A program made the translations under genes and the position numbers. Of a DNA stretch of 64,000 bases, positions 31,363-64,000 are shown in pieces. The stretch is taken from NCBI RefSeq assembly GCF_009914755.1, contig NC_060946.1; one strand, 5' to 3'. The stretch is from the human T2T-CHM13v2.0 reference genome, Homo sapiens. Every line of letters begins with the position of its first letter. Positions within the stretch are counted from its first letter, which is position 1. The notes under the pieces were generated by a model, which was not told the origin of the DNA, searched no databases, and was given only the letters and a program-made list of their open reading frames with translations.

Positions 31363-31468
31363 GTGCTTGCTTCGGCGGCACATATCCTAAAATTAGAACA
31401 ATACGGAGAAAGTTAGCGTGGCTTCTGCATAAGGAGGCAGCACAGATCTTTGAAGCATTCCATATTTT
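31363..31468 (+). pseudogene. RNU6 pseudogene: U6 snRNA retro-pseudogene (degenerate)
   Basis: gtgcttgcttcggcggcacatat...gaagcattccatatttt; ACAGAGA box altered to ACGGAGA. Confidence 0.9.
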
Positions 31469-32589
31469 GTGCAGTCACTGGAAGGTCATTTGACTATTTG
31501 CTGACTAGCTCTAAGGAAACAGTGTGAATCAAAGCGAAATGGGTGCCACCCAAATATTGAAATTGTGATTTGCGCTGCAAAAATAGTCATGTAAGATGGT
31601 CTATGAGATGACTTAGAGCTGAATAACATGTTTGGTGCAAAATATATTGTTAGTATGTATGTCGAAAATGACAGAATGTCAGCTTGCTACTTCTTCATGG
31701 AAACTAAAAAAAATAAAAGTAGACTTTTGGTCTCCCATGTCAGCCGGAATTGAACATCAATATAAAGCATCATTGTAACCAACATCTGCGGGCTCAGAGT
31801 TTGAGTCTGTAGAGAAGGCTCATTGGTCCAAACCAGGTCTTAACATCCATTGGTTTTTCTGCCCTTGGTGTGATTGATCAACTCCGTAATAGTGGACAAT
31901 CACATTATCTACTTTAATGAGATATTTAGGAATACATTTAGTTACAAACTATGACATAGTTGAGATGCCCTGAAATATAAGCCATAAAGAGTAGGACAAC
32001 TAAGAGGCAAAATTCGGACTTAATAACATTTTCTGAAAACTACAACATTTGCATATTAGAACCTATGAACAAAATACGCATTGGGTTTTATTTGTGATTC
32101 CAAGATAATTTTAGTCATAAAGTTTAGGAAGAGATTATTCCATTGCTTTACTATTTCTCTCAGCATTTAAAAAATGTGATCTCATTAAATTTTTATCGGA
32201 ACCTAGGGAAATAAGGCAGCAAAGTCCTCACTTTGTTGAAGAAGACATTGAGCCTAAGAGAAGCAAGTTGTCCAAGAACAAATAGCTGTTCATTATGGAG
32301 CTAGGACTTATGCAGAGTTGGGACACTTTCTATTATGTCAGGTTAATGCAACCTAATTTACTGGGTCACATGCCCTCGATTTATGAGTATTTCACCCTAC
32401 ATTTTTTTCTTCTTTAATTAGAAGCTTAAAGAGAAGTTTGCAGAATGTACTCATAAGTGGATGGGATAATACTGTTAAGTTCTGTTATTCTGATATTGTT
32501 TGAAATACTGTTAAGAATTTCACATTTGGTAAGTATTTTTTATATCAGTATTAAAATAGTAATTTGGTTTATTACAATTTTATACATAG

Positions 32590-49556: not shown

Positions 49557-49674
49557 TGATGAACAAAATGATACTCAGAAGCAACTTTCTGAAGAACAGA
49601 ACACTGGAATATTACAAGATGAGATTCTGATTCATGAAGAAAAGCAGATAGAAGTGGCTGAAAATGAATTCTGA
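49557..49674 (+). CDS. POTEG/POTEM/POTEH: POTE coding exon 10 ending at premature TGA (DEQNDTQKQ...IEVAENEF*)
   Basis: tctAG|t...TGA g|GTATTT; exons 1-10 sum to 1527 nt = 508 aa + stop. Confidence 0.93.
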
Positions 49675-51182: not shown

Positions 51183-52508
51183 CTTTCTCTTAGTTATAAG
51201 AAAGAAAAAGACCTCTTGCATGAAAATAGTACGTTGCAGGAAGAAATTGTCATGCTAAGACTGGAACTAGACATAATGAAACATCAGAGCCAGCTAAGAG
51301 AAAAGAAATATTTGGAGGAAATTGAAAGTGTGGAAAAAAAGAATGATAATCTTTTAAAGGGTCTACAACTGAATGAGCTCACCATGGATGATGATACTGC
51401 CGTGCTCGTCATTGACAACGGCTCTGGCATGTGCAAGGCCGGCTTTGCAGGTGACGATGCCCCCCGGGCTGTCTTCCCTTCCATCGTGGGGTGCCCCAGG
51501 CACCAGAACATGATGGGGGGCATGCGTCAGATGGAGTCCTATGTGGGCAATGAGGCCCAGAGCAAGAGAGGCATCCTGACCCTGAAGTACCCCATGGAGC
51601 ACGGCATCATCACCAACTGGGAAGACATGGAGAAGATCTGGCACCACACCTTCTACAATGAGCTGCGTGTGGCTCCCGAGGAGCACCCCATCCTGCTGAC
51701 CGAGGCACCCCTGAACCCCAAGGCCAACCGTGAGAAGATGACCCAGATCATGTTTGAGACCTTCAACACCCCAGCCATGTACGTGGCCATCCAAGCCGTG
51801 CTGTCCTTGTACACCTCTGGCCGTACTACTGGCATTGTGATGGACTCTGGTGACGGGGTCACCCACACTGTGCCCATCTATGAGGGGAATGCCCTCCCCC
51901 ATGCCACCCTGCGCCTAGACCTGGCTGGCCGGGAACTGACTGACTACCTCATGAAGATCCTCACCGAGCGTGGCTATAGGTTCACCACCATGGCCGAGCA
52001 GGAAATCGTGCGTGACATCACAGAGAAGCTGTGCTATGTTGCCCTGGACTTCGAGCAGGAGATGGCCACAGCGGCCTCCAGCTCCTCCCTAGAGAACAGC
52101 TATGAGCTGCCCAACGGCCAGGTCATCACCATTAGCAACGAGCGGTTCCACTGCCCCGAGGTGCTCTTCCAGCCTTGCTTCCTGGGCATGGAATCCTGTG
52201 GCATCCACGAAACTGCCTTCAACTCTATCATGAAGTCTGATGTGGACATCCACAAAGACCTGTACACCAACACAGTGCTATCTGGTGGCACCACCATGTA
52301 CCCTGGCATTGCCCACAGGATGCAGAAGGAGATCGCTGCCCTGGCGCCTAGCACGATGAAGATCAAGATTGTTGCTCCTCCCAAGCGCAAGTACTCCGTG
52401 TGGGTCGGTGGCTCCATCCTGGCCTCGCTGTCCACCTTCCAGCAGATGTGGATCAGCAAGCAGGAGTATGAGTCAGGCCCCTCCATTGTCCACCGCAAAT
52501 GCTTCTAG
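51183..52508 (+). CDS. Terminal POTE exon with open ANKRD26-like (67 codons) + beta-actin-like (374 aa, ATG 51384) frame; out of frame with the canonical CDS, translation unproven
   Basis: cttAG|ctt tct ctt agt ([15 protein letters not shown]...[11 protein letters not shown]...HRKCF*); no stop for 441 codons. Confidence 0.7.
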
Positions 52509-53479: not shown

Positions 53480-55990
53480 GGGGCAGGCCGCCATCTTTCC
53501 CATTCGGGCAACTTAGTCATTCCAGCCTGAGGGCTTTGGAGAGTACAAACTGACCAGGGAAAGAAGAGATCCCAGAGCACAGCATAGCTGCTTTACCAAA
53601 TCATGGCCAGACTGCTTCTGTAAGCAGGCCCCTGATCCTGTTCCACCTCACTGGACAGGACCTCCCAACTGGGGCCTCCAGCTACCCCCACCAGCATCCC
53701 TTGGCCAATGGAAATTTGAAATGTTCCTGGGACAGAGCTCCTGGAGAGAGGGGCAGGCCACCACCTTTGCTGTTTGGGTGACTAGCCGTTCTGGCCTGCA
53801 GGCTTTGGAGAGCCCAAGCTGACAAGGGGTAGAAGAGGTGCCTCAGCACAGCACAGCCACGCTACGAAAACATGGCCAGACTCTTGTTTAAGTCAGTCCC
53901 CGAACACATTTCTAGTCAGTGGGTGAAGTCTTTCAACCAGGGTCTCTGGCTACCTTGACTGCTGTTCTCTGGCCGACAGAGGTCTCAGGCCTCCCTGAGT
54001 CAGAGCTCCCGGGGGGAGGACCAGATTGTCATCTTTGCTGTTTGGGTGACCCAGCCATTTCAGCCTTAGGGCTTCAGAGTGTCTGAGGTAGCCAGGGGCT
54101 GAAGTGAACCCCCAGCACAGCACAGCTGCTCTATAAAAACGTGGCCAGACTTTTTCTTTAAGCAAGTCCCTGTTCTTATTCCTCCTGACTAGGTAAGACT
54201 TCTCAACTTGCCTCCAGCCACATCTTATTGGTGTGTTCAGATTGGCAACAGGTTCGTACCTCAGTGGTACAGAGCTCCCAGAGGAAGGGGTAGGCTATCA
54301 TCTTCCCTGGAAAATACGAGTCAATTAGGGACTTGAGGGGACCCCCAGCATTCCACAGCAGCCCTTCAGAAAAGTGGCCAGACTCTGTACTTGATGGGCA
54401 GATCCTCCTGGCCTGTGTCTCTAGCCAGCCCACCACTGGAGCTATCAAGCCAGTAGCAACTCAGCAGTTCCTTGGACAGAGCTTCCAGGAGCAAATGAAA
54501 TCCTTTCTGCCACTGCCTTTGCAGTGAACTGCCCTTGCTATCCTCAGAAGATATATCACGGGAGCAAAGACCCTAAGTGCCATATCAACACCTCCAATAA
54601 GCTGCAGTTGACCCAAAGAACAAGCCAATCCATCTCCCACAGGTACCACACACACTCCACTACTCATCACCAGACAGGGAACCCTGGCTTGGGCCCACAG
54701 CACAGACCCTCCATCCTGGGCCGATTACACTGAGTGATTGCTAACTCACATGTCTCTGGGATGGAGCACCCAGGAGACAAGCAAAGTGGTGGAGCAGCAA
54801 GTCAGGTGATGTGGAGCCCAGAGGGCAGGGACAGCTATCTCTCTAGGCTCCACTTGCCCTTGTGAGACACTTTGTCCCAGCACTTTAGGAATGCTGAGGT
54901 CAGACCAGCCACATCTCATGTGCAAGATTGCCCAGCAGACATCAGGTCTGAGAGTTCCCCTTTTAAAAAAGGGGACTTGCTTAAAAAAGAAGTCTAGCCA
55001 CGATTGTGTAGAGCAGCTGTGCTGTGCTGGAGATTCACTTTTGAGAGAGTTCTCCTCTGAGACCTGATCTTTAGAGGCTGGGCAGTCTTGCACATGAGAT
55101 GGGGCTGGTCTGATCTCAGCACTCCTTAGTCTGCTTGCCTCTCCCAGGGCCCCAGCCTGGCCACACCTGCTTACAGGGCACTCTCAGATGCCCATACCAT
55201 AGTTTCTGTGCTAGTGGACCGTACCATATCAGTGGAGAGCTGCAGCAAGGTGGCACCTACGGCCACGCACCAGCCTGCACATTACCTCTCCATACTGCAG
55301 CCCTTTATATGGAAACTTCCTACATCACTTTGCTGTGTGTGTTTACACAGGTGGATTTTGCTTTACTTGCACTGACAGCACACAGGAGGGCAGCACACAC
55401 CCCAACCCACATCAACTGCCATTAAAGAAAAGAAATTTCAGCCCATAATTTCATGTCCAGCAAAATTAGGCATCATAAGTGAAGGAGAAATGAGATCCTT
55501 TTCAGACAAGCAAATGCTGAGGGAATTCAATATCACCAGATCTACCTTACAAGAGCTCCTGAAGGAAGCACTAAATATAGAAAGAAAAAACCATCACCAG
55601 CCACTACAAAAATGCAGTGAAGAACGCAGTGAATTACGCAGTCCAGTGATGCTAAAAACCAAACACATACGTTAAGTCTGCAAAATAACCAGCTGACAGC
55701 ATGACGACAGGATAAAATCCACACATACCATTACTAACCTTAAATGAAAATGGGCTAAATGCTCCCATTGAAAGACACGGGGCAAGCTGGATAAAGAACC
55801 AAGACCCACTGGAGTATGCTGTCTTCAAGAAACCCATCTCACATGCGGTGGCATACATAGGCTCAAAATAAAGGAATGGAGAAAAATATTTCAAGCAAAT
55901 GGAAAACAGAAAAAAGCAGGTGTTGCACTCCTACTTTCTGACAAAACAGACTATGCGAATAAAGATAAAAAAGAGAAGGACATTACAAAG
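53480..55990 (+). mobile_element. Older L1PA-type 5' UTR (~270-bp internal repeats), ORF1 C-terminus and ORF2 start; rearranged and deleted
   Basis: gggcaggcc...ctttgctgtttggg units near 53480, 53750, 54020; ORF1 motif SFSDKQMLREF...LQELLKEAL at 55490; ORF2 start near 55701. Confidence 0.8.
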
Positions 55991-57104: not shown

Positions 57105-58719
57105 GTTTTTTTAAAATTATACTTTAAGTTCTGGGGTACATGTGCAGAACATACAGGTTTGTTACGTAGGTATAATATACACATGCCATGGTGGCTTGCT
57201 GCATCCATCAACCCATGATCTGCATTAGGTATTTCTCCTAATGCCATCCCTCTCCTAGCCCCCCACGCTGACAGGCCCTGGTGTGTGATATTCCCCTTCC
57301 TGTGTCCATGTGTTCTCATTTTTCAACTCCCACTTATGAGTGAGAACATGTGTTTCTGTTCTTGTGTTAGTTTGCTGAGAATGATGGTTTCCAGCTTCAT
57401 CCATGTCCCTGCAAAGGACATGAACTCATCCTTTTTTATAGCTTCATAGTATTCCGTAGTGTATATATACCACATTATCCAGTCTGTCACTGATGGGCAT
57501 TTGGGTTGGTTCCAAGTCTTTGCTGTTGTGAACTGTGCCGCAGTAAACATACGTGTGCATGTGTCTTTATATTAGAATGATTTATTATTTTTTCAGTATA
57601 TACCCAGTAATGGGATTGCTGGGTCAAATGTATTTCTAGTTGTAGATCCTTGAGGAATCATCACACTGTCTTCCACAATGGTTGAAATAATTTATACTCC
57701 CAGCAAGAGTGTAAAAGCATTCTTATTTCTCCACGTCCTCTCCAGCATGTGTTGTTTCCTGATCTTTTAATGATGGCCATTCTAAGTGGTGTGAGATTGT
57801 ATTTCATTGTGGTTTTGATTTCCATTTCTCTAATGACCAGTGATGATGTGCTTTGCTTCACGTGTTCTTTGGCTGCATAAATGTCTTCTTTGGGAAGTGT
57901 CTGTTCATATCATTTGCCCGCTTTTTCATGGGGTTGTTTATTTTCTTGTAAATTTGTTTAAGTGCTTTGTAGATTCTGCATATTAGCCCTTTGTCAGATG
58001 GATAGATTGCAAAAATTTTCTCCCATTCTGTGTGTTGCCTGTTCACTCTGATGATAGTTTGTTTTGCTCTGCAGACACTCTTTAGCTTAATTAGATCCCA
58101 TTTGTCAATTTTGGCTTTTGTTGCCATTGCTTTTGGTGTTCTAGTGATGAGGTCTCTGCCCATGCCTGTGTCCTGAATGGTATTGCCTAACACAAGGACA
58201 TTTCTGTGCCTGAATGCCATACCACCCAAAGTCATTTATAGATTCAGTGCTATCCCCATCAAGATACCACTGACTTTTTTCAAAAAATTAGAAAAACTAC
58301 CTTAAATTTCATATGGAATCAAAAAAGAGTCCGCATAGCCAAGACAATCCTAAGCAAAAAGAACAAAGCTGGAGGCATCACAGTACCTGACTTCAAACTA
58401 CTCTACAAGGCCACAGTAACGTAAACAGCATGGTACTGGTACAAAACCAAGTATATAGACCAATGGAACAGAACAGAGGCCTCAGAAATGACACCACACT
58501 TGTAAAACCACAAGATCTTTGACAAAACTGACAAAAGTAAGCACTGGGGAAAGGATTCCCCATTTTATAAATAAATGGTGTTAGAAAAACTGGCTAGCCA
58601 TATGCAGAAAACCGAAACTGGGCCACTTCCTTACACTTTATATACAAAAATTAACTTAAGAAGGATAAAAGAGTTAAATGTAAGACCTAAAAGCAAAAAA
58701 CCTAGAAGAAAACATAGGC
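57105..58719 (-). mobile_element. L1PA with 5' inversion (twin-priming structure)
   Basis: Antisense 3' part 57105-58189; sense ORF2 part 58213-58719; the two are contiguous in L1 coordinates at ...gaagaaaac-taggc-aatacc. Confidence 0.85.
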
Positions 58720-58769
58720 CACCAACCTCAGGGGAAATATACTTGTAATGAAATGCATGGTACAAACGC

Positions 58770-61700
58770 GCATTCCCTGCTTCCTTGAGTGGGTGAGGTT
58801 GGTGGCTGGTCCATCTGCTCCAAGCGTACCCTTACAGAGGTGGCTGGTTGCTCTTTGAGGCAGCTTGGCCTTGCCTGGCATGCACAAGCTTCAGTGCAAC
58901 AACTGTGCTATAAATGGAGCCACATAGGGGAAATGAGCAGCAGGCTTAGGACCAGGGTGTACACTGCCTTTGGGGCTCCAGTCCGTGCCTCAGGGATGGT
59001 ATGGCACTGAGAGCTTCTTGGTTGCCAAGAGGCAGATCACAGGCCGTTTTGAGAAGGACTTCATGTTCAACTGCAGAAAGCAGCCAGGATTACCATCTAG
59101 GGTACTTGTCCTTCTGTGGCCCTGGCCAGACTTAGAATTTGGGCCAATGCAGGACAAGATCACTCGGAGCTGTGTGGCAGTCGCTCGGGCGTGTGCATGC
59201 CAGGCAAGGGCAAGCTGGCTCAAAAAGCAACAAGCCACCTATTCGAGGGTGGACCTGCAGCAGGTAGACCAACCACAAACCTCACTTAACCAAGGAAATA
59301 CATGGCCTGGTTCCCACAGCCCGAGTGGCTGCCACGTGATGGCTGATAGAGCAGAGGACTTCAGAAAAGCAGATGGCCCTTTGGTCCTACCTTTAGGGTA
59401 GAAGAACTGATGTGCCATTTGCGGGAGCGAGTGAGGTTGGTGGCTGGAGAACCGGTGCCTGGCACACCGTGGCAGAGTTGACTGGTTGCTCTTTGAGCTA
59501 GCTTGGCCTTGCTCGGCCTGCACAAGCCTCAGTGCAACAACTGTGCTATGAATGGAGCCACAGAGAGGAAACAAGCAGCAAGATCAGGACAGGGTGTACA
59601 CTGCCTTTCAGGCTCCAGTCCATGACTCGGGTCATATGGCACTGCAGGCTTCTTGGTTGCCAAGAGGCAGACCACAGGCCGTCTTGAGGAGGACTTTACA
59701 TTCAAGTGCAGAAAGCAGCCAAGATTACCGTCCGGGGGACTCGGCCTTCTGTGGCCCTGGCCAGACTGAGAATTTGTGCCAAGGCAGGACAAGCTCACTC
59801 GGAGCAGCGTGCCAGTCGCTGGGGCCTATGCATGCTAGGCAAGGCCAAGCTGGCTCAAAGAGCAACCAGCCACCTGTTCAAGGGTGCGCCTAGAGCAGGC
59901 AGAGCATCCACCACCTCACCCACTGAAGGAAGTGGGGATGGCCAGCTTCCCACAGCTTGATTGGCTGCCACCTAATTGCTGATGGAGCAGAGGCCTTAGG
60001 AAAAGCAGATGGCACTGTGGCCCTACCTTTAGGGTAGAAGAAGTGAAGCACATGTCTGGCTGCTAGTTGGTGACTGGTGCACCTGCTCAAGGCACACCCT
60101 TGCAGAGGCGGCTGGTTGCTCTTTGAGGCAGCTTGGCCTTGGCCGGCATGCCCAAGCTTCAGTGCAACAACTGTGCTACAAATGGCGCCATATAAAAACG
60201 AGCAGCAGGCTCAGGAGCAGGGTGTGCACTGCCTTTGGGGCTCCAGTCCATGCCTCAGGCGTCATATGGCACTGTGGGCTTCTTGGTTGCCAAGAGGCAG
60301 ACCACAGGCTGTCTAGAGGAGGACTTTATGTTCAAGTGTAGAAAGCAGCCAGGATTGCCACCCAGGGCACTCGGCCTTCTGTGGCCCTGTCCAGACTTAG
60401 AATTTGTTCCAAGGCAGGACAAACTCACTTGGACCAGCGTGTTAGTACCTGGGGCCTGTGCATGGCAGGCAAGGCCAAGCTGGCTCAAAGAGCCACCAGC
60501 CACCTGTGCAAGGGTGTGCCTGGACCAGTTGGACCAGCCACCAAGCTCACCCACTCAAGGAAGCAGGGATGGCGAGATTACAACAGCCTGAGTGGCTGCC
60601 ACCTGATGGCTGATGGAGCAGAGGCCTGAGGTAAATCAGATGGCACGTTTAACTCTTTAATGGATCTTAAGTTAATTTTTTTATAAAGCACATGGCACCA
60701 GTCCATGCCTCAGAGTTCGTACGGCACTGCGGACCACAGCAGGCCGAGTCCCCTGGGTGGCAATCCTGCCTGCTTTCTGCACTTGAACATAAAGTCCTCC
60801 TCAAGACGGCCTGTGGTCTGCCTCTTGGCCCTACATTTAGGGTAGAGGAAAGGATGTACCATGTCTGGCAGGGAGTGAGGTTGGTGGCTGGTCCGCCTGC
60901 TCCTGGCCCAGCCTTGCAGAGGTGGCTGGTTGCTCTTTGAGCCAGCCTGGCTTTGCCTGGCGTGCACACAGCTCAGTGCAACTACTCTGCTACAAATGTA
61001 GCCACAGAGAGGAAACGAGCAGCAGGCTCAGGAGCAGGTTGTGCATTGCCTTTGGGGCTCTAGTCCATGCCTCAGGGGTCGTGTAGCACTGCGGGCTTCT
61101 TGGTTGCCTAGAGGCAGACCACAGGCCATCTTGAGGAGGACTTTATGTTCAGGTGCAGAACGCAGCCAGGATTACCATCCAGGGGGGCCTTCTGTAGCCC
61201 TGGCCAGACCTTGCAGAGGTGGCTGGTTGCTCTTTGAGCGAGCTCGGCCTCCCTGGCATGCACAGGCCCCAGGTACTAACACGCTGCTCTGAGTGAGCTT
61301 GTCCTGCCTTGGCTGCCACCTAACTGCTGATGGAGCAGTGGCCTTAGGAAAAGCAGATGGTGCTGTAGCCCACCTTTAGGGTAGAAGAAGTGATGTACCA
61401 TGTCCGGCCGCTAGATGGTGACTGGTGCACCTGCTCCAGGCATACCCTTGCAGAGGTGGGTGGTTGCTGTTTGAGCCAGCTTGGCCTTGCCCGGCATGCA
61501 CAAGCTTCAGTGCAACAACTGTCCTACAAATGGAGCCACAGAGAGGAAACAAGCAGCAAGCTCAGGAGCAGGGTGTGCACTGCCTTTGGGGCTCCAGTCC
61601 ATGCCTCGGATCGTATGGTACTGCAGGCTTCTTGGTTGCCAAGAGGCGGACCACAGGCCTTCTTGAGGAGGACTTTACGTTCAAGTGCAGAAAGCAGCCA

Positions 61701-64000
61701 AAATTACCATCCATGGGACTGAGCCTTCTGTGGCCCTGGCGAGACTTAAAATTTGTGCCAAGGCAGGACAAGCTCACTCGGAGCAGCGTGTCAGTAGCTG
61801 GGGCCTATGCATGCCAGGCAAGGCCAAGCTGGCTCAAAGAGCAACCAGCCACCTCTGCAAGGGTGCGCCTAGTGCAGGCGGAGCATCCACCACCTCACCC
61901 GCTCGAGGAAGTGGGGATGGCCAGGTTCCCACAGCCTGAGTGTCTGCCACCTTATTGCTGATGGAGCAGAGGCCTTAAGAAAAGCAGATGGCACTGTGGC
62001 CCTACCTTTAGGGTGGAAGAAGTGATGTACATGTCCGGACGCTAATTGGTGACTGGTACACCGGCTCCTGGTACACCTTTGCAGAGGTGGCTGGTTGCTC
62101 TTTGAGCCAGCTTGTCCTTGCCCGGCATGCACAAGTTTCAGTGCAACAACTTTGCCACAAATGGAGCCATATAGAGGAAAGAAAAAGCAGGTTCAGGAGA
62201 AGGGTGTACCCTGCCTTTGGGGCTCCAGTCCATGCCTCAGGTGTCACATGGCACTGCAGGCTTCTTGGTTGCCAAGAGGCAGACCACAGGCCATCTTGGG
62301 GAGGACTTTATATTCAAGTGCAGAAAGCAGCCAGGATTACCATCCAGGGGGACCTTCTATAGCCCTGGCCAGACCTTGCAGAGGTGTCTGGTTGCTCTTT
62401 GAGCCAGCTTGGCCTCCCTGGCATGCACAGGCCCCAGGTACTAACACACTGCTCCGAGTGTGCTTGTCCTGCCTTGGCTGCCACCTAATTCCTGATGGAG
62501 CAGTGGCCTTAGGAAAAGCAGATGGCACTGTGGCCCACCTTTAGGGTAGAAGTGATGTACCATGTCTGGCCGTTAGTTGGTGACTGGTACACCTGCTCCT
62601 GGCACACCCTTGCAGAGGTGGCTGGTTGCTCTTTGAGCCAGCTTGGCCTTGCCCAGCATGCACAAGCTTCAGTGCAACAACTGTGCTACAAATGGAGCCA
62701 CAGAGAGGAAACAAGCAGCAGGCTCAGAAACCAGGTGTGCGCTGCCTTTGGGGCTCCAGTCCATGCCTCAGGGGTCGTATGGCACTGCAGGCTTCTTGGT
62801 TGCCAAGAGGAAGACCACAGGCCGTCTTGATGAGGACTTTACGTTCAAGTACAGAAAGCAGCCAGGATTACCATCCAGGGGACTCGGCCTTCTGTGGCCC
62901 TGGCCAGACATAGAATTTGTGCCAAGGCAGGACAAGCTCACTCGGAGCAGCGTGTCAGTCGCTGGGGCCTATGCATGCCAGGCAAGGCCGAGCTGGCTCA
63001 AAGAGCAACCAGCCACCTCTGCAAGGGTGCGCCTAGAGCAGGCAGAGCATCCAGCACCTCAGCCACACAAGGAAGTGGGGATGGCCAGCTTCCCACAGCT
63101 TGATTGGCTGCCACCTAATTGCTGATGGAACAGAGGCTTTAGGAAAAGCAGATGGCACTGTGGCCCTACCTTTAGGGTAGAAGAAGTGATGTACATGTCC
63201 GGCTGCTAGTTGGTAGCTCGTGCCCTTGCTCCTGGCACACCCTTGCAGAGGTGACTGGTTGCTTTTTGAGCCAGCTTGGCCTTGGCCAGCATGCCCAAGC
63301 TTCAGTGCAACAACTGTGCTACAAATGGAGCCATATAGAAACGAGCAGCAGGCTCAGGAGCAGGGTGTGCACTGCCTTTGGGGCTCCAGTCCATGCCTCG
63401 GGTCGTACGGTACTGCAGGCTTCTTGGTTGCCAAGAGGCAGACCACAGGCCTTCTTGAGGAGGACTTTACATTCAAGTGCAGAAAGCAGCCAAAATTACC
63501 ATCCATGGGACTGAGCCTTCTGTGGCCCTGGCGAGACTTAAAATTTGTGCCAAGGCAGGACAAGCTCACTCGGAGCAGCGTGTCAGTAGCTGGGGCCTGT
63601 GCATGCCAGGCAAGGCCAAGCTGGCTCAAAGAGCAACCAGCCACCTCTGCAAGGGTGCGCCTAGTGCAGGCGGAGCATCCACCACCTCACCCGCTCGAGG
63701 AAGTGGGGATGGCCAGGTTCCCACAGCCTGAGTGTCTGCCACCTTATTGCTGATGGAGCAGAGGCCTTAAGAAAAGCAGATGGCACTGTGGCCCTACCTT
63801 TAGGGTAGGACGCTAATTGGTGACTGGTACACCGGCTCCTGCTACACCTTTGCAGAGGTGGCTGGTTGCTGTTTGAGCCAGCTTGTCCTTGCCCGGCATG
63901 CACAAGTTTCAGTGCAACAACTTTGCCACAAATGGAGCCATATAGAGGAAACAAGAAGCAGGTTCAGGAGAAGGGTGTACCCTGCCTTTGGGGCTCCAGT
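58770..64000. repeat. Tandem array of ~630-bp GC-rich monomers, each with an internal long inverted repeat; continues beyond the window
   Basis: aagcagatgg anchor at 59367, 60003, 61351, 61982, 62516, 63146, 63774 (degenerate copy near 60634). Confidence 0.92.

What the first reader, a model, noticed from the sequence alone, without database searches (positions are those of the whole stretch)
58770..64000. Tandem array of ~630-bp monomers that each encode a long hairpin, downstream of a germline/tumour gene
Seen: each monomer has two inverted arms, e.g. 62592-62664 versus 62970-63042 (73 nt, 7 mismatches, 39-nt perfect core cacccttgcagaggtggctggttgctctttgagccagct), separated by ~305 nt. At the array edge the arm extends to ~115 nt (58775-58885 versus 60458-60570). 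Arms therefore alternate orientation along the whole array. I do not recognise it as a named satellite. Inference: transcription from either strand gives serial dsRNA stems (ADAR, Dicer or dsRNA-sensor substrates), and the DNA is prone to fold-back and inversion. Read-through from POTE (mutated poly(A) signal) or the upstream L1 5' UTR could supply transcripts.
Basis: partly seen in the sequence, partly recalled or inferred. Interest (0 to 1): 0.75.

Follow-up and report, generated by a model that had tools for sequence, protein, structure and literature searches.

The report
Palindromic satellite array downstream of POTEH
This is a real tandem array of about 630-base units carrying inverted arms, but it looks like a catalogued human repeat (most likely REP522) copied along with the POTE gene duplications, and nothing in its sequence suggests the hairpins were kept by selection.

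Summary
The array is real. It runs from window 58764 past the window end to about 69344 (10.6 kb, 17 units).

Full units (about 608-633 bp) carry two arms of about 98 nt in inverted orientation, 289 nt apart, and fold strongly as RNA (z -7.8). Three of the 9 units in the window (5 of 17 overall) are a 531-bp type. In these the second arm has been flipped, so the unit has no hairpin of its own (z -0.9).

The family has at least 371 arm cores genome-wide. It sits about 7 kb downstream of the last exon at 12 POTE paralogue loci. It also occurs in about 24 copies of 1.9-2.8 kb on chr1, 4, 9, 20, Y and the acrocentric short arms. Sixteen of 18 other loci examined share the same L1/array junction, so the family spread by segmental duplication from one locus.

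Across 105 monomers there is no covariation between arms, the arms are no better conserved than the loop, and CpG o/e is 0.21.

It is not SATR1. It fits the printed description of REP522 (about 1.8 kb, largely palindromic). That name was not confirmed with Dfam.

The parts
58764..64000 (+). Tandem array, cut by the window end. It continues to about window 69344: 10.6 kb and 17 units in all.
58764..59435 (+). Unit 1, full type. Its first arm is extended outward (58764-58894).
   Evidence: (pairs I1, I5)
59436..60056 (+). Unit 2, full type (monomer positions 9-632).
60058..60646 (+). Unit 3, full type, truncated at monomer position 591.
60647..60879 (+). Rearranged block. It holds 47 bp of AT-rich unrelated DNA (60647-60693), monomer 185-221 (60694-60730), monomer 235-333 inverted (60731-60829) and monomer 594-632 (60826-60865). 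The block recurs at window 65606-65778.
60289..60829 (+). Strongest hairpin in the window: arms 60289-60387 and 60731-60829, 99 nt, 93% complementary. It was created by the rearrangement.
   Evidence: pair I2; z -14.7
60880..61405 (+). Unit 4, short type. It reads monomer 9-342, then 459-354 inverted (61209-61313), then 537-633. Both arm copies are direct.
   Evidence: (family D6)
61406..62036 (+). Unit 5, full type.
62037..62567 (+). Unit 6, short type (inverted segment 62374-62478). It has no hairpin of its own.
62568..63200 (+). Unit 7, full type, used as the reference monomer. Arms are 62575-62672 and 62962-63059.
   Evidence: (pair I21)
63201..63808 (+). Unit 8, full type (monomer positions 1-613).
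63808..64000 (+). Unit 9, short type, cut by the window end (continues to about 64338).
57764..58763 (+). L1-derived flank abutting the array. This junction is shared by 16 of 18 other loci examined. The L1 extends upstream: the ORF1 dsRBD-like domain is at 55376-55675, and its upstream limit was not mapped.

Best explanation
The stretch is one copy of a catalogued, non-coding, satellite-like repeat family, most likely the one that Repbase and RepeatMasker call REP522. It is carried as a fixed part of the POTE segmental duplication.

Inferred history:
- An ancestral monomer of about 630 bp acquired an internal inverted duplication, giving arms of about 100-130 nt around a spacer of about 289 nt.
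- The monomer was amplified in tandem beside a truncated L1.
- The whole block was then copied by segmental duplication with the POTE genes and into pericentromeric and acrocentric regions.
- In the chr2/14/22 lineage, two inversion-type rearrangements made new unit types. Unequal exchange then amplified these as blocks of about 1.8 and 4.9 kb.

The hairpin potential is a passive inheritance of the inverted duplication, decaying at the neutral rate. It is not a selected RNA structure. Strong CpG depletion indicates that the array is normally methylated and silent in the germ line. Any dsRNA would arise only as a by-product when the region is derepressed. If the name REP522 is right, the literature reports such derepression in cancers and 8-cell embryos.

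Shown here: the anatomy, the copy distribution, the shared junction, the absence of covariation and the CpG depletion. Inferred: the order of events, the methylation, and the name REP522.
For: Anatomy:
- 17 units from 58764 to about 69344.
- An internal 4.85-kb duplication at 90.7% identity and a 2.48-kb one at 94.6%.

Family:
- 677 matches to one monomer, with only 37 of 86 candidates scored.
- 371 arm cores with up to 3 mismatches, against 0 for the reversed control.
- Arrays start 6.7-7.4 kb downstream of the POTE last-exon homologue at 12 loci: chr22, chr14 (two), chr2 (five), chr15 (two), chr18 and chr21. Eleven follow with 5 and 41. For chr14:13.31 Mb only arm cores 10.7 kb or more downstream were listed.
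- Unit counts are 6 (chr18, chr21), 8 (chr15), 6-13 (chr2) and 17 (chr14, chr22). Short-type units occur only on chr2, 14 and 22.
- The chr14 array is 98.2-98.5% identical to this one.

Single origin: the 1-kb L1 flank plus the first 100 bp of the array aligns as one piece in 16 of 18 other loci, at 87-99.6%.

Neutral hairpin:
- Arm complementarity within a monomer is 0.859, against 0.866 for the arm of one monomer paired with the arm of another at the same locus. The paired difference is -0.001 +/- 0.038, and 50 of 105 are positive.
- There is no covariation beyond shuffles.
- Column identity is 0.93 and 0.92 for the arms, 0.92 for the loop and 0.92 for the linker.
- The consensus arms are 94.8% complementary over 97 nt. 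Observed Watson-Crick pairing is 78.8 of 98, which equals the value expected from independent decay (0.948 x 0.931 x 0.923 = 0.81).

Silencing: CpG o/e 0.21 at 56% GC, and TG+CA o/e 1.52.

Non-coding:
- The longest stop-to-stop frame is 179 aa, and 5 of 35 frames scanned gave no Pfam hit.
- No Rfam match at E up to 1.

Name:
- The dispersed copies here are 1.9-2.8 kb, with 43-57% of bases in inverted self-matches.
Against: - The name was not tested against Dfam or RepeatMasker.
- One paper places 'a large REP522 satellite' at the BAGE locus on chr21 (PMC3560060). No family copy lies within 20 kb either side of the BAGE exon match at chr21:7883433, and the nearest listed copy is 247 kb away. 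Other BAGE copies were not examined.
[quoted passage not shown] This family is mainly pericentromeric.
- Absence of covariation among recently duplicated copies has limited power. The copies are related, and most variation is one-sided.
- Four pairs show a sizeable number of double changes (7 to 16 sequences each).
- Methylation and transcription were not measured.
Confidence: 0.7

Rival explanations
1. The hairpins are functional. The array would be a selected source of structured RNA (dsRNA, endo-siRNA or piRNA precursors, or ADAR substrates), transcribed with the cancer-testis POTE genes, and the arms would be kept complementary by selection.
For: - Full units fold far better than shuffles (z -7.78; z -14.7 for the rearranged hairpin).
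- Perfect runs reach 56 nt in some monomers.
- The array has kept its place beside 12 POTE paralogues.
- If it is REP522, transcripts are reported in cancers and 8-cell embryos, and the family is enriched in lncRNA exons.
Against: - No covariation.
- Arms are no better conserved than the loop or linker.
- Pairing equals the neutral expectation.
- 5 of 17 units lost the inverted arrangement and were still amplified.
- CpG o/e is 0.21.
- No RefSeq transcript lies on the array (hub table), and there is no Rfam match.
Confidence: 0.08
2. The monomer derives from a non-autonomous DNA transposon (MITE-like) whose long terminal inverted repeats are the two arms, later amplified in tandem.
For: - Two arms of about 100-130 nt bracket a 289-nt core.
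- The consensus arms are 94.8% complementary.
- The loop itself is not palindromic (0.496 against 0.509 in shuffles). This is as expected for an element with terminal repeats only.
Against: - No solitary arm-core-arm elements with their own flanks were seen.
- 16 of 18 other loci share one and the same L1 junction, so copies spread by segmental duplication and not by transposition.
- Isolated fragments are of the form second arm, linker, first arm (core pairs about 254 bp apart). This is the wrong way round for a transposon.
- No transposase-like frame was found.
- Target-site duplications were not looked for systematically.
Confidence: 0.07
3. It is a catalogued or T2T-era repeat under a name other than REP522, or a still unnamed duplicon-specific satellite.
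For: - The BAGE-locus test was not met at the one copy examined.
- The 'telomeric' label does not fit the distribution.
- No Rfam or literature sequence tied the name to these letters.
Against: - Size and palindromy fit REP522.
- SATR1 is excluded by its primers (0 matches with up to 3 mismatches).
- SATR1 and SATR2 are described at Xiao/DA loci; the passage seen names 4p at 4 and 9 Mb and 8p at 7-8 and 11-12 Mb, where no copy of this family was listed.
- A family with more than 35 loci in regions assembled for two decades is unlikely to be absent from Repbase (inference).
Confidence: 0.15

Closest known systems
REP522 (Repbase/RepeatMasker, class 'Satellite/telo')
   Same: - Size class and palindromy match. 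It is printed as '~1.8Kb, largely palindromic, unclassified interspersed repeat'. The dispersed copies here are 1.9-2.8 kb with 43-57% of bases in inverted self-matches, and this array has a repeat period of about 1.77-1.8 kb.
- It belongs to heterochromatic pericentromeric and acrocentric surroundings.
   Different: - Identity of sequence was not tested, because no Dfam or Repbase copy is available here.
- No copy was found within 20 kb of one BAGE exon match.
- The 'telomeric' label is not reflected in the loci seen.
Inverted-repeat Alu pairs, the main endogenous dsRNA and ADAR substrates (recalled)
   Same: Both are imperfect intramolecular duplexes formed by two diverged copies in opposite orientation within one transcript. 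Identity is about 80-86% here.
   Different: - The arms here are about 98 nt against about 300 nt.
- They are built into a satellite monomer and did not arise by independent insertions.
- No evidence of transcription or editing was obtained.
Pericentromeric duplicon families such as chAB4 (recalled: Woehr, Fink and Assum 1996)
   Same: - Copies lie on chr1, 4, 9, Y and the acrocentric short arms.
- Spread was by segmental duplication with a shared junction.
   Different: Whether the dispersed copies lie inside chAB4 units was not tested. The resemblance in distribution is recalled, not shown.
SATR1 / SATR2 satellites
   Same: Both are GC-rich primate satellites with long monomers, found in duplication-rich regions.
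   Different: - The SATR1 consensus primers have no match in the window.
- The SATR loci described (4p, 8p Xiao/DA; macaque subtelomeres) do not coincide with this family.
- SATR2 was not tested directly.

Membership tests
REP522 | Significant match to the Repbase/Dfam REP522 consensus | not testable with these tools
   No Dfam or RepeatMasker library is on hand. No paper read printed REP522 sequence or primers.
REP522 | About 1.8 kb unit, largely palindromic (PMC4896275) | tested here: met
   - Sixteen dispersed copies match over 1.92 kb and eight over 2.8 kb.
- 43-57% of bases lie in inverted self-matches in the 4 copies tested, and 32.5% in the 1771-bp period of this array.
- The fit is approximate.
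REP522 | Large block at the BAGE locus on chr21 (PMC3560060) | tested here: inconclusive
   - 0 hits within 20 kb either side of the PF08180 match at chr21:7883433.
- The nearest listed copy is 247 kb away.
REP522 | Overlaps hsa-mir-5701 (bioRxiv 2021.12.09.471935) | not testable with these tools
   - Rfam gave no match in the array or at the chr15 array with its flanks.
- No miR-5701 sequence was available from a call.
SATR1 | Contains the SATR1 consensus primer sites (PMC3606032, supplementary file 3) | tested here: not met
   0 matches for either primer with up to 3 mismatches in 64 kb.
Structured RNA gene (selected hairpin) | Compensatory changes that keep the pairs, and arms more conserved than loops | tested here: not met
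   - 105 monomers and 98 pairs: 86.8% paired against 86.7% in shuffles.
- 12 pairs with double changes against 19.1 expected.
- Identity 0.93 for the arms against 0.92 for the loop.
MITE-like DNA transposon | Solitary copies bounded by the inverted repeats, at unrelated insertion sites | tested here: not met
   - 16 of 18 other loci share one flank junction.
- Isolated fragments have the arms in the order second then first.
- Target-site duplications were not searched for.
Tandem satellite with higher-order structure | Head-to-tail units with multi-unit blocks more alike than neighbouring units | tested here: met
   - Neighbouring units are 84-92% identical to the reference, while unit 7 is 98.6% identical to the unit 1771 bp away.
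- A 2.48-kb block repeats at 94.6% and a 4.85-kb block at 90.7%.

The most novel reading that the evidence does not exclude
When the POTE neighbourhood loses its silencing (testis, 8-cell embryo, tumours), these arrays would be transcribed together with the cancer-testis POTE genes. Their stems of 98-99 nt would then form a distinct, locus-clustered class of endogenous dsRNA beside inverted Alus. That dsRNA would be edited by ADAR, cut into small RNAs able to act on all POTE-linked arrays in trans, or sensed by PKR or MDA5 as part of 'viral mimicry'. This would be a by-product with consequences, not a selected structure, so the absence of covariation does not exclude it.
Probability: 0.12. Interest if true: 0.5.

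Novelty: already known. Interest (0 to 1): 0.2.

Why it matters
The result mainly closes a lead. The 'unnamed hairpin satellite' is most likely REP522, a repeat already printed as largely palindromic and as a source of cancer-activated promoters. Its hairpins decay as neutral sequence would.

Three points have modest descriptive value:
- The family traces to one L1-flanked locus and is a fixed 3' companion of 12 POTE paralogues.
- Its unit count grows from 6 to 17 along the POTE lineage.
- Its variant units arose by inversion-type rearrangements.

If REP522 transcripts seen in tumours include these arrays, their built-in stems are worth remembering when dsRNA sources in cancer are listed.

Tried and rejected
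- Tandem Repeats Finder reported nothing in the array, because its longest period is 500. The repeat finder and BLAST were used instead.
- SATR1/SATR2 was my first guess. I rejected it on the SATR1 primers and on the Xiao/DA loci described in PMC2700803. My early link to Xiao/DA was wrong.
- Rfam gave no family in the array at E up to 1. At gathering score it gave only U6 at 31363-31469 in the window and mir-3118 near the chr15 and chr4 copies.
- BAGE adjacency as a test of the name was inconclusive.
- Kaczkowski et al. 2016 is not held, so only its meeting abstract was read.
- One literature search was useless because 'pote' matches 'potential'.
- The coding reading was rejected. No frame exceeds 179 aa, and there was no Pfam hit for the 5 of 35 frames scanned.
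- A palindrome running through the loop was rejected.
- POTEA on chr8 has no monomer and no L1 junction in the 10 kb fetched, 2.7-12.9 kb downstream of its last-exon homologue.
Full report
**The observation**

The array is real.
- The repeat finder gives nine direct-repeat families filling 58764-64000, with spacings of 628-638 and 531-534 bp, and 82 inverted pairs.
- GC rises from 0.32-0.45 upstream to 0.54-0.59 inside the array.
- Tandem Repeats Finder missed the array only because its longest period is 500.
- BLAST of one unit (62568-63200) against the window plus the next 20 kb of the chromosome shows that the array runs from 58764 to about window 69344, in 17 units.

The quoted arms, their 39-nt perfect core and the long edge arm are all present. 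The core has 13 matches with up to 3 mismatches in the window and none in 100 shuffles.

**Anatomy**

Full units (608-633 bp) carry a first arm at monomer positions 8-105 and a second arm at 395-492. The second arm is the reverse complement of the first. A 289-nt loop separates them and a linker of about 140 nt follows. The loop itself is not palindromic: its identity to its own reverse complement is 0.496, against 0.509 +/- 0.02 in shuffles.

Three of the 9 units in the window (5 of 17 in the array) are a 531-bp type.
- In these, monomer positions 354-459 are inverted and the neighbouring stretches are lost.
- Both arm copies therefore point the same way (family D6, 20).
- Such a unit folds no better than shuffles (z -0.91, 16 of 100 shuffles as good).
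- A full unit gives -315.8 kcal/mol and z -7.78 (0 of 20). With DNA parameters z is -12.7.

A second rearrangement lies at 60647-60879. It contains 47 bp of unrelated AT-rich DNA and an inverted copy of monomer 235-333. It creates the strongest inverted repeat in the window: 60289-60387 against 60731-60829, 99 nt, 93% (pair I2; z -14.7).

So the arms do not alternate along the whole array, and not every unit is a hairpin. The 39-nt perfect run is the window's best case. Among the 11 full units of this array in the alignment the longest perfect run is 10-40 nt. Over 105 monomers genome-wide the median is 22 and the range 10-56.

The array has higher-order structure:
- Unit 7 is 98.6% identical to the unit 1771 bp further on, while its neighbours are 84-92% identical.
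- A 2.48-kb block repeats at 94.6% identity and a 4.85-kb block at 90.7%.

**The family in the genome**

One monomer finds 677 matches in the window's own genome, with only 37 of 86 candidates scored. The 39-mer finds 371 sites with up to 3 mismatches (196 forward, 175 reverse). The reversed control finds none.

Homologues of the POTEH last exon, set against the array positions, show an array downstream of the last exon, in the gene's orientation, at 12 loci.
- The loci are chr22, chr14 (two), chr2 (five), chr15 (two), chr18 and chr21.
- At 11 of them the array starts 6.7-7.4 kb downstream. For chr14:13.31 Mb only arm cores 10.7 kb or more downstream were listed.
- Unit counts are 6 on chr18 and chr21, 8 on chr15, 6-13 on chr2 and 17 on chr14 and chr22.
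- The short, rearranged units occur only on chr2, 14 and 22.
- The chr14 array is 98.2-98.5% identical to this one.
- The 10 kb fetched downstream of the POTEA homologue on chr8 holds no monomer.

About 24 further copies of 1.9-2.8 kb lie on chr1 (127.8 Mb), chr4 (49.2-49.4 Mb), chr9, chr20 (30.09 Mb), chrY (11.40 Mb) and the acrocentric short arms. They fall into three identity classes of eight. These copies contain partial monomers in reverse orientation, and 43-57% of their bases lie in inverted self-matches.

The 1 kb of L1-derived flank plus the first 100 bp of the array aligns as a single piece in 16 of 18 other loci, at 87-99.6% identity. The exceptions are the chrY and chr21p copies. 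The downstream flank is shared by 6 of 18. The family therefore spread from one L1-flanked locus by segmental duplication, not by transposition.

**Is the hairpin selected?**

I aligned 105 full monomers from 19 loci (alignment A1). Units that BLAST did not cover from monomer position 34 or earlier to 588 or later were left out. This excludes all short-type units.

- Watson-Crick pairing over the 71 core pairs is 0.859 within a monomer.
- It is 0.866 between the first arm of one monomer and the second arm of another at the same locus, and 0.858 across loci.
- The paired difference is -0.001 +/- 0.038, and 50 of 105 are positive.
- On the 98-pair helix, 86.8% of cells pair, against 86.7 +/- 0.1% when partners are shuffled (77 of 500 shuffles reach it).
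- Pairs with changes on both sides number 12 against 19.1 expected (500 of 500 reach it).
- The covariation score is 0.053 against 0.051 (55 of 500 reach it).
- Sliding the partner by 1-3 columns drops pairing to 31-47%, so the helix is real but inherited.
- Column identity is 0.931 and 0.923 for the arms, 0.924 for the loop and 0.921 for the linker.
- The majority consensus has arms 94.8% complementary over 97 nt.
- Multiplying that by the two arm identities predicts 0.81 pairing. Observed pairing is 78.8 of 98, or 0.80.

This is what independent neutral decay of an old inverted duplication gives. The test has limits. The copies are related, most changes are one-sided, and four pairs do carry 7-16 double changes each.

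**Other properties**

- CpG o/e is 0.21 at 56% GC, with TG+CA at 1.52 of expectation. This is the signature of long-term germ-line methylation and not of a CpG-island promoter (inference from established knowledge).
- No stop-to-stop frame exceeds 179 aa, and 5 of 35 frames scanned have no Pfam match.
- Rfam has no match at E up to 1.
- RefSeq places no transcript on the array. POTEH ends at 51528 and PSLNR starts at 70791, about 1.45 kb beyond the array's end (hub table).
- A + strand L1 lies upstream, with an ORF1 dsRBD-like domain at 55376-55675.

**What it is called**

It is not SATR1. The two SATR1 consensus primers of PMC3606032 (supplementary file 3) have no match with up to 3 mismatches. 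The passage of PMC2700803 read here names Xiao/DA loci on 4p and 8p, where no copy of this family was listed.

The best fit is REP522.
- Passages in other papers give its RepeatMasker class as Satellite/telo (PMC4240582).
- They describe H3K9me3 over a large REP522 block at the BAGE locus in human liver (PMC3560060).
- They report up-regulation at the 8-cell stage (PMC6545021), expression in lung cancers (PMC6925957 and PMC11353194) and enrichment in lncRNA exons (bioRxiv 189753).
- They report overlap with hsa-miR-5701 (bioRxiv 2021.12.09.471935).

Against the name, or at least not for it:
- No family copy lies within 20 kb of the BAGE exon match at chr21:7883433, and the nearest listed copy is 247 kb away.
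- The other BAGE copies could not be fetched.
- The 'telomeric' label does not match the loci seen.

I could not run Dfam or RepeatMasker. I put the name at about 0.7. It is close to certain that the family is catalogued under some name, since it has more than 35 loci in regions assembled long ago (inference).

**Mechanism**

The best-supported reading is a non-coding satellite-like repeat that hitch-hikes in the POTE and pericentromeric duplications. It changes by unequal exchange and occasional inversion-type rearrangements, and it is normally methylated.

Its hairpins are inherited and decaying. dsRNA from them is possible whenever a full unit or the rearranged block is transcribed. That would be a by-product of derepression and not a selected function.

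From recalled knowledge, not from any call: inverted repeats with spacers near 300 bp and about 14% divergence are weak inducers of DNA fold-back. The two fixed rearrangements show that such events happened, but do not show ongoing instability.

**Verdict**

The thing is already known in kind. Interest is low, at 0.2.

Noticed in passing
window 51183-52508 (+): The frame entering POTEH's last annotated exon stays open for 441 aa. It reads a CCDC144C-type coiled-coil piece followed by a complete actin domain (Pfam Actin, profile positions 2-410 of 410, E 2.9e-137). RefSeq ends the coding part at 49674. This is presumably the known POTE-actin retrogene insertion (recalled). Here it is intact on chr22. 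The exon's second half also matches the ACTB locus at chr7:5.647 Mb.
   Followed up: partly
L016:9371-9445 (chr15:18749371-18749445) and L017:4947-5021 (chr4): Rfam mir-3118 matches (104 and 97 bits, gathering score 89) lie 770 bp beyond the chr15 array's end and 3.9 kb before the chr4 copy. No such match occurs in this window or in the 10 kb after it.
   Followed up: no
window 60647-60693: A 47-bp AT-rich stretch unrelated to the monomer sits at the junction of the rearranged block. It recurs with the block about 4.9 kb further on, so it was amplified as part of the larger repeat.
   Followed up: partly
G000 chr13, 15, 18, 21, 22, 9 and 5: Eleven matches to the Pfam BAGE model. Where both were listed (chr21, chr13, chr22), a copy of this repeat family lies 250-430 kb from a BAGE match. 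This suggests shared large pericentromeric duplication blocks.
   Followed up: partly
G000 chr9:33.59, 38.59, 76.84 and 109.32 Mb; chr18:14.416 Mb; chr1:127.865 Mb: Solitary pairs of arm cores about 254 bp apart, in the order minus then plus (second arm, linker, first arm), away from the arrays. These are fragments of the family in other duplicons. One, at chr9:109.3 Mb, lies far from any centromere.
   Followed up: no
window 31363-31469 (+): Rfam U6 match (66.3 bits). It agrees with the annotated pseudogene RNU6-816P.
   Followed up: no
window 61309-61313 and 62474-62478: At the distal junction of the inverted segment in short-type units, the two joined sequences share a few bases (about 5, read by eye). 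This is the pattern expected from a template switch. The proximal junction shares 1-2 bases.
   Followed up: partly
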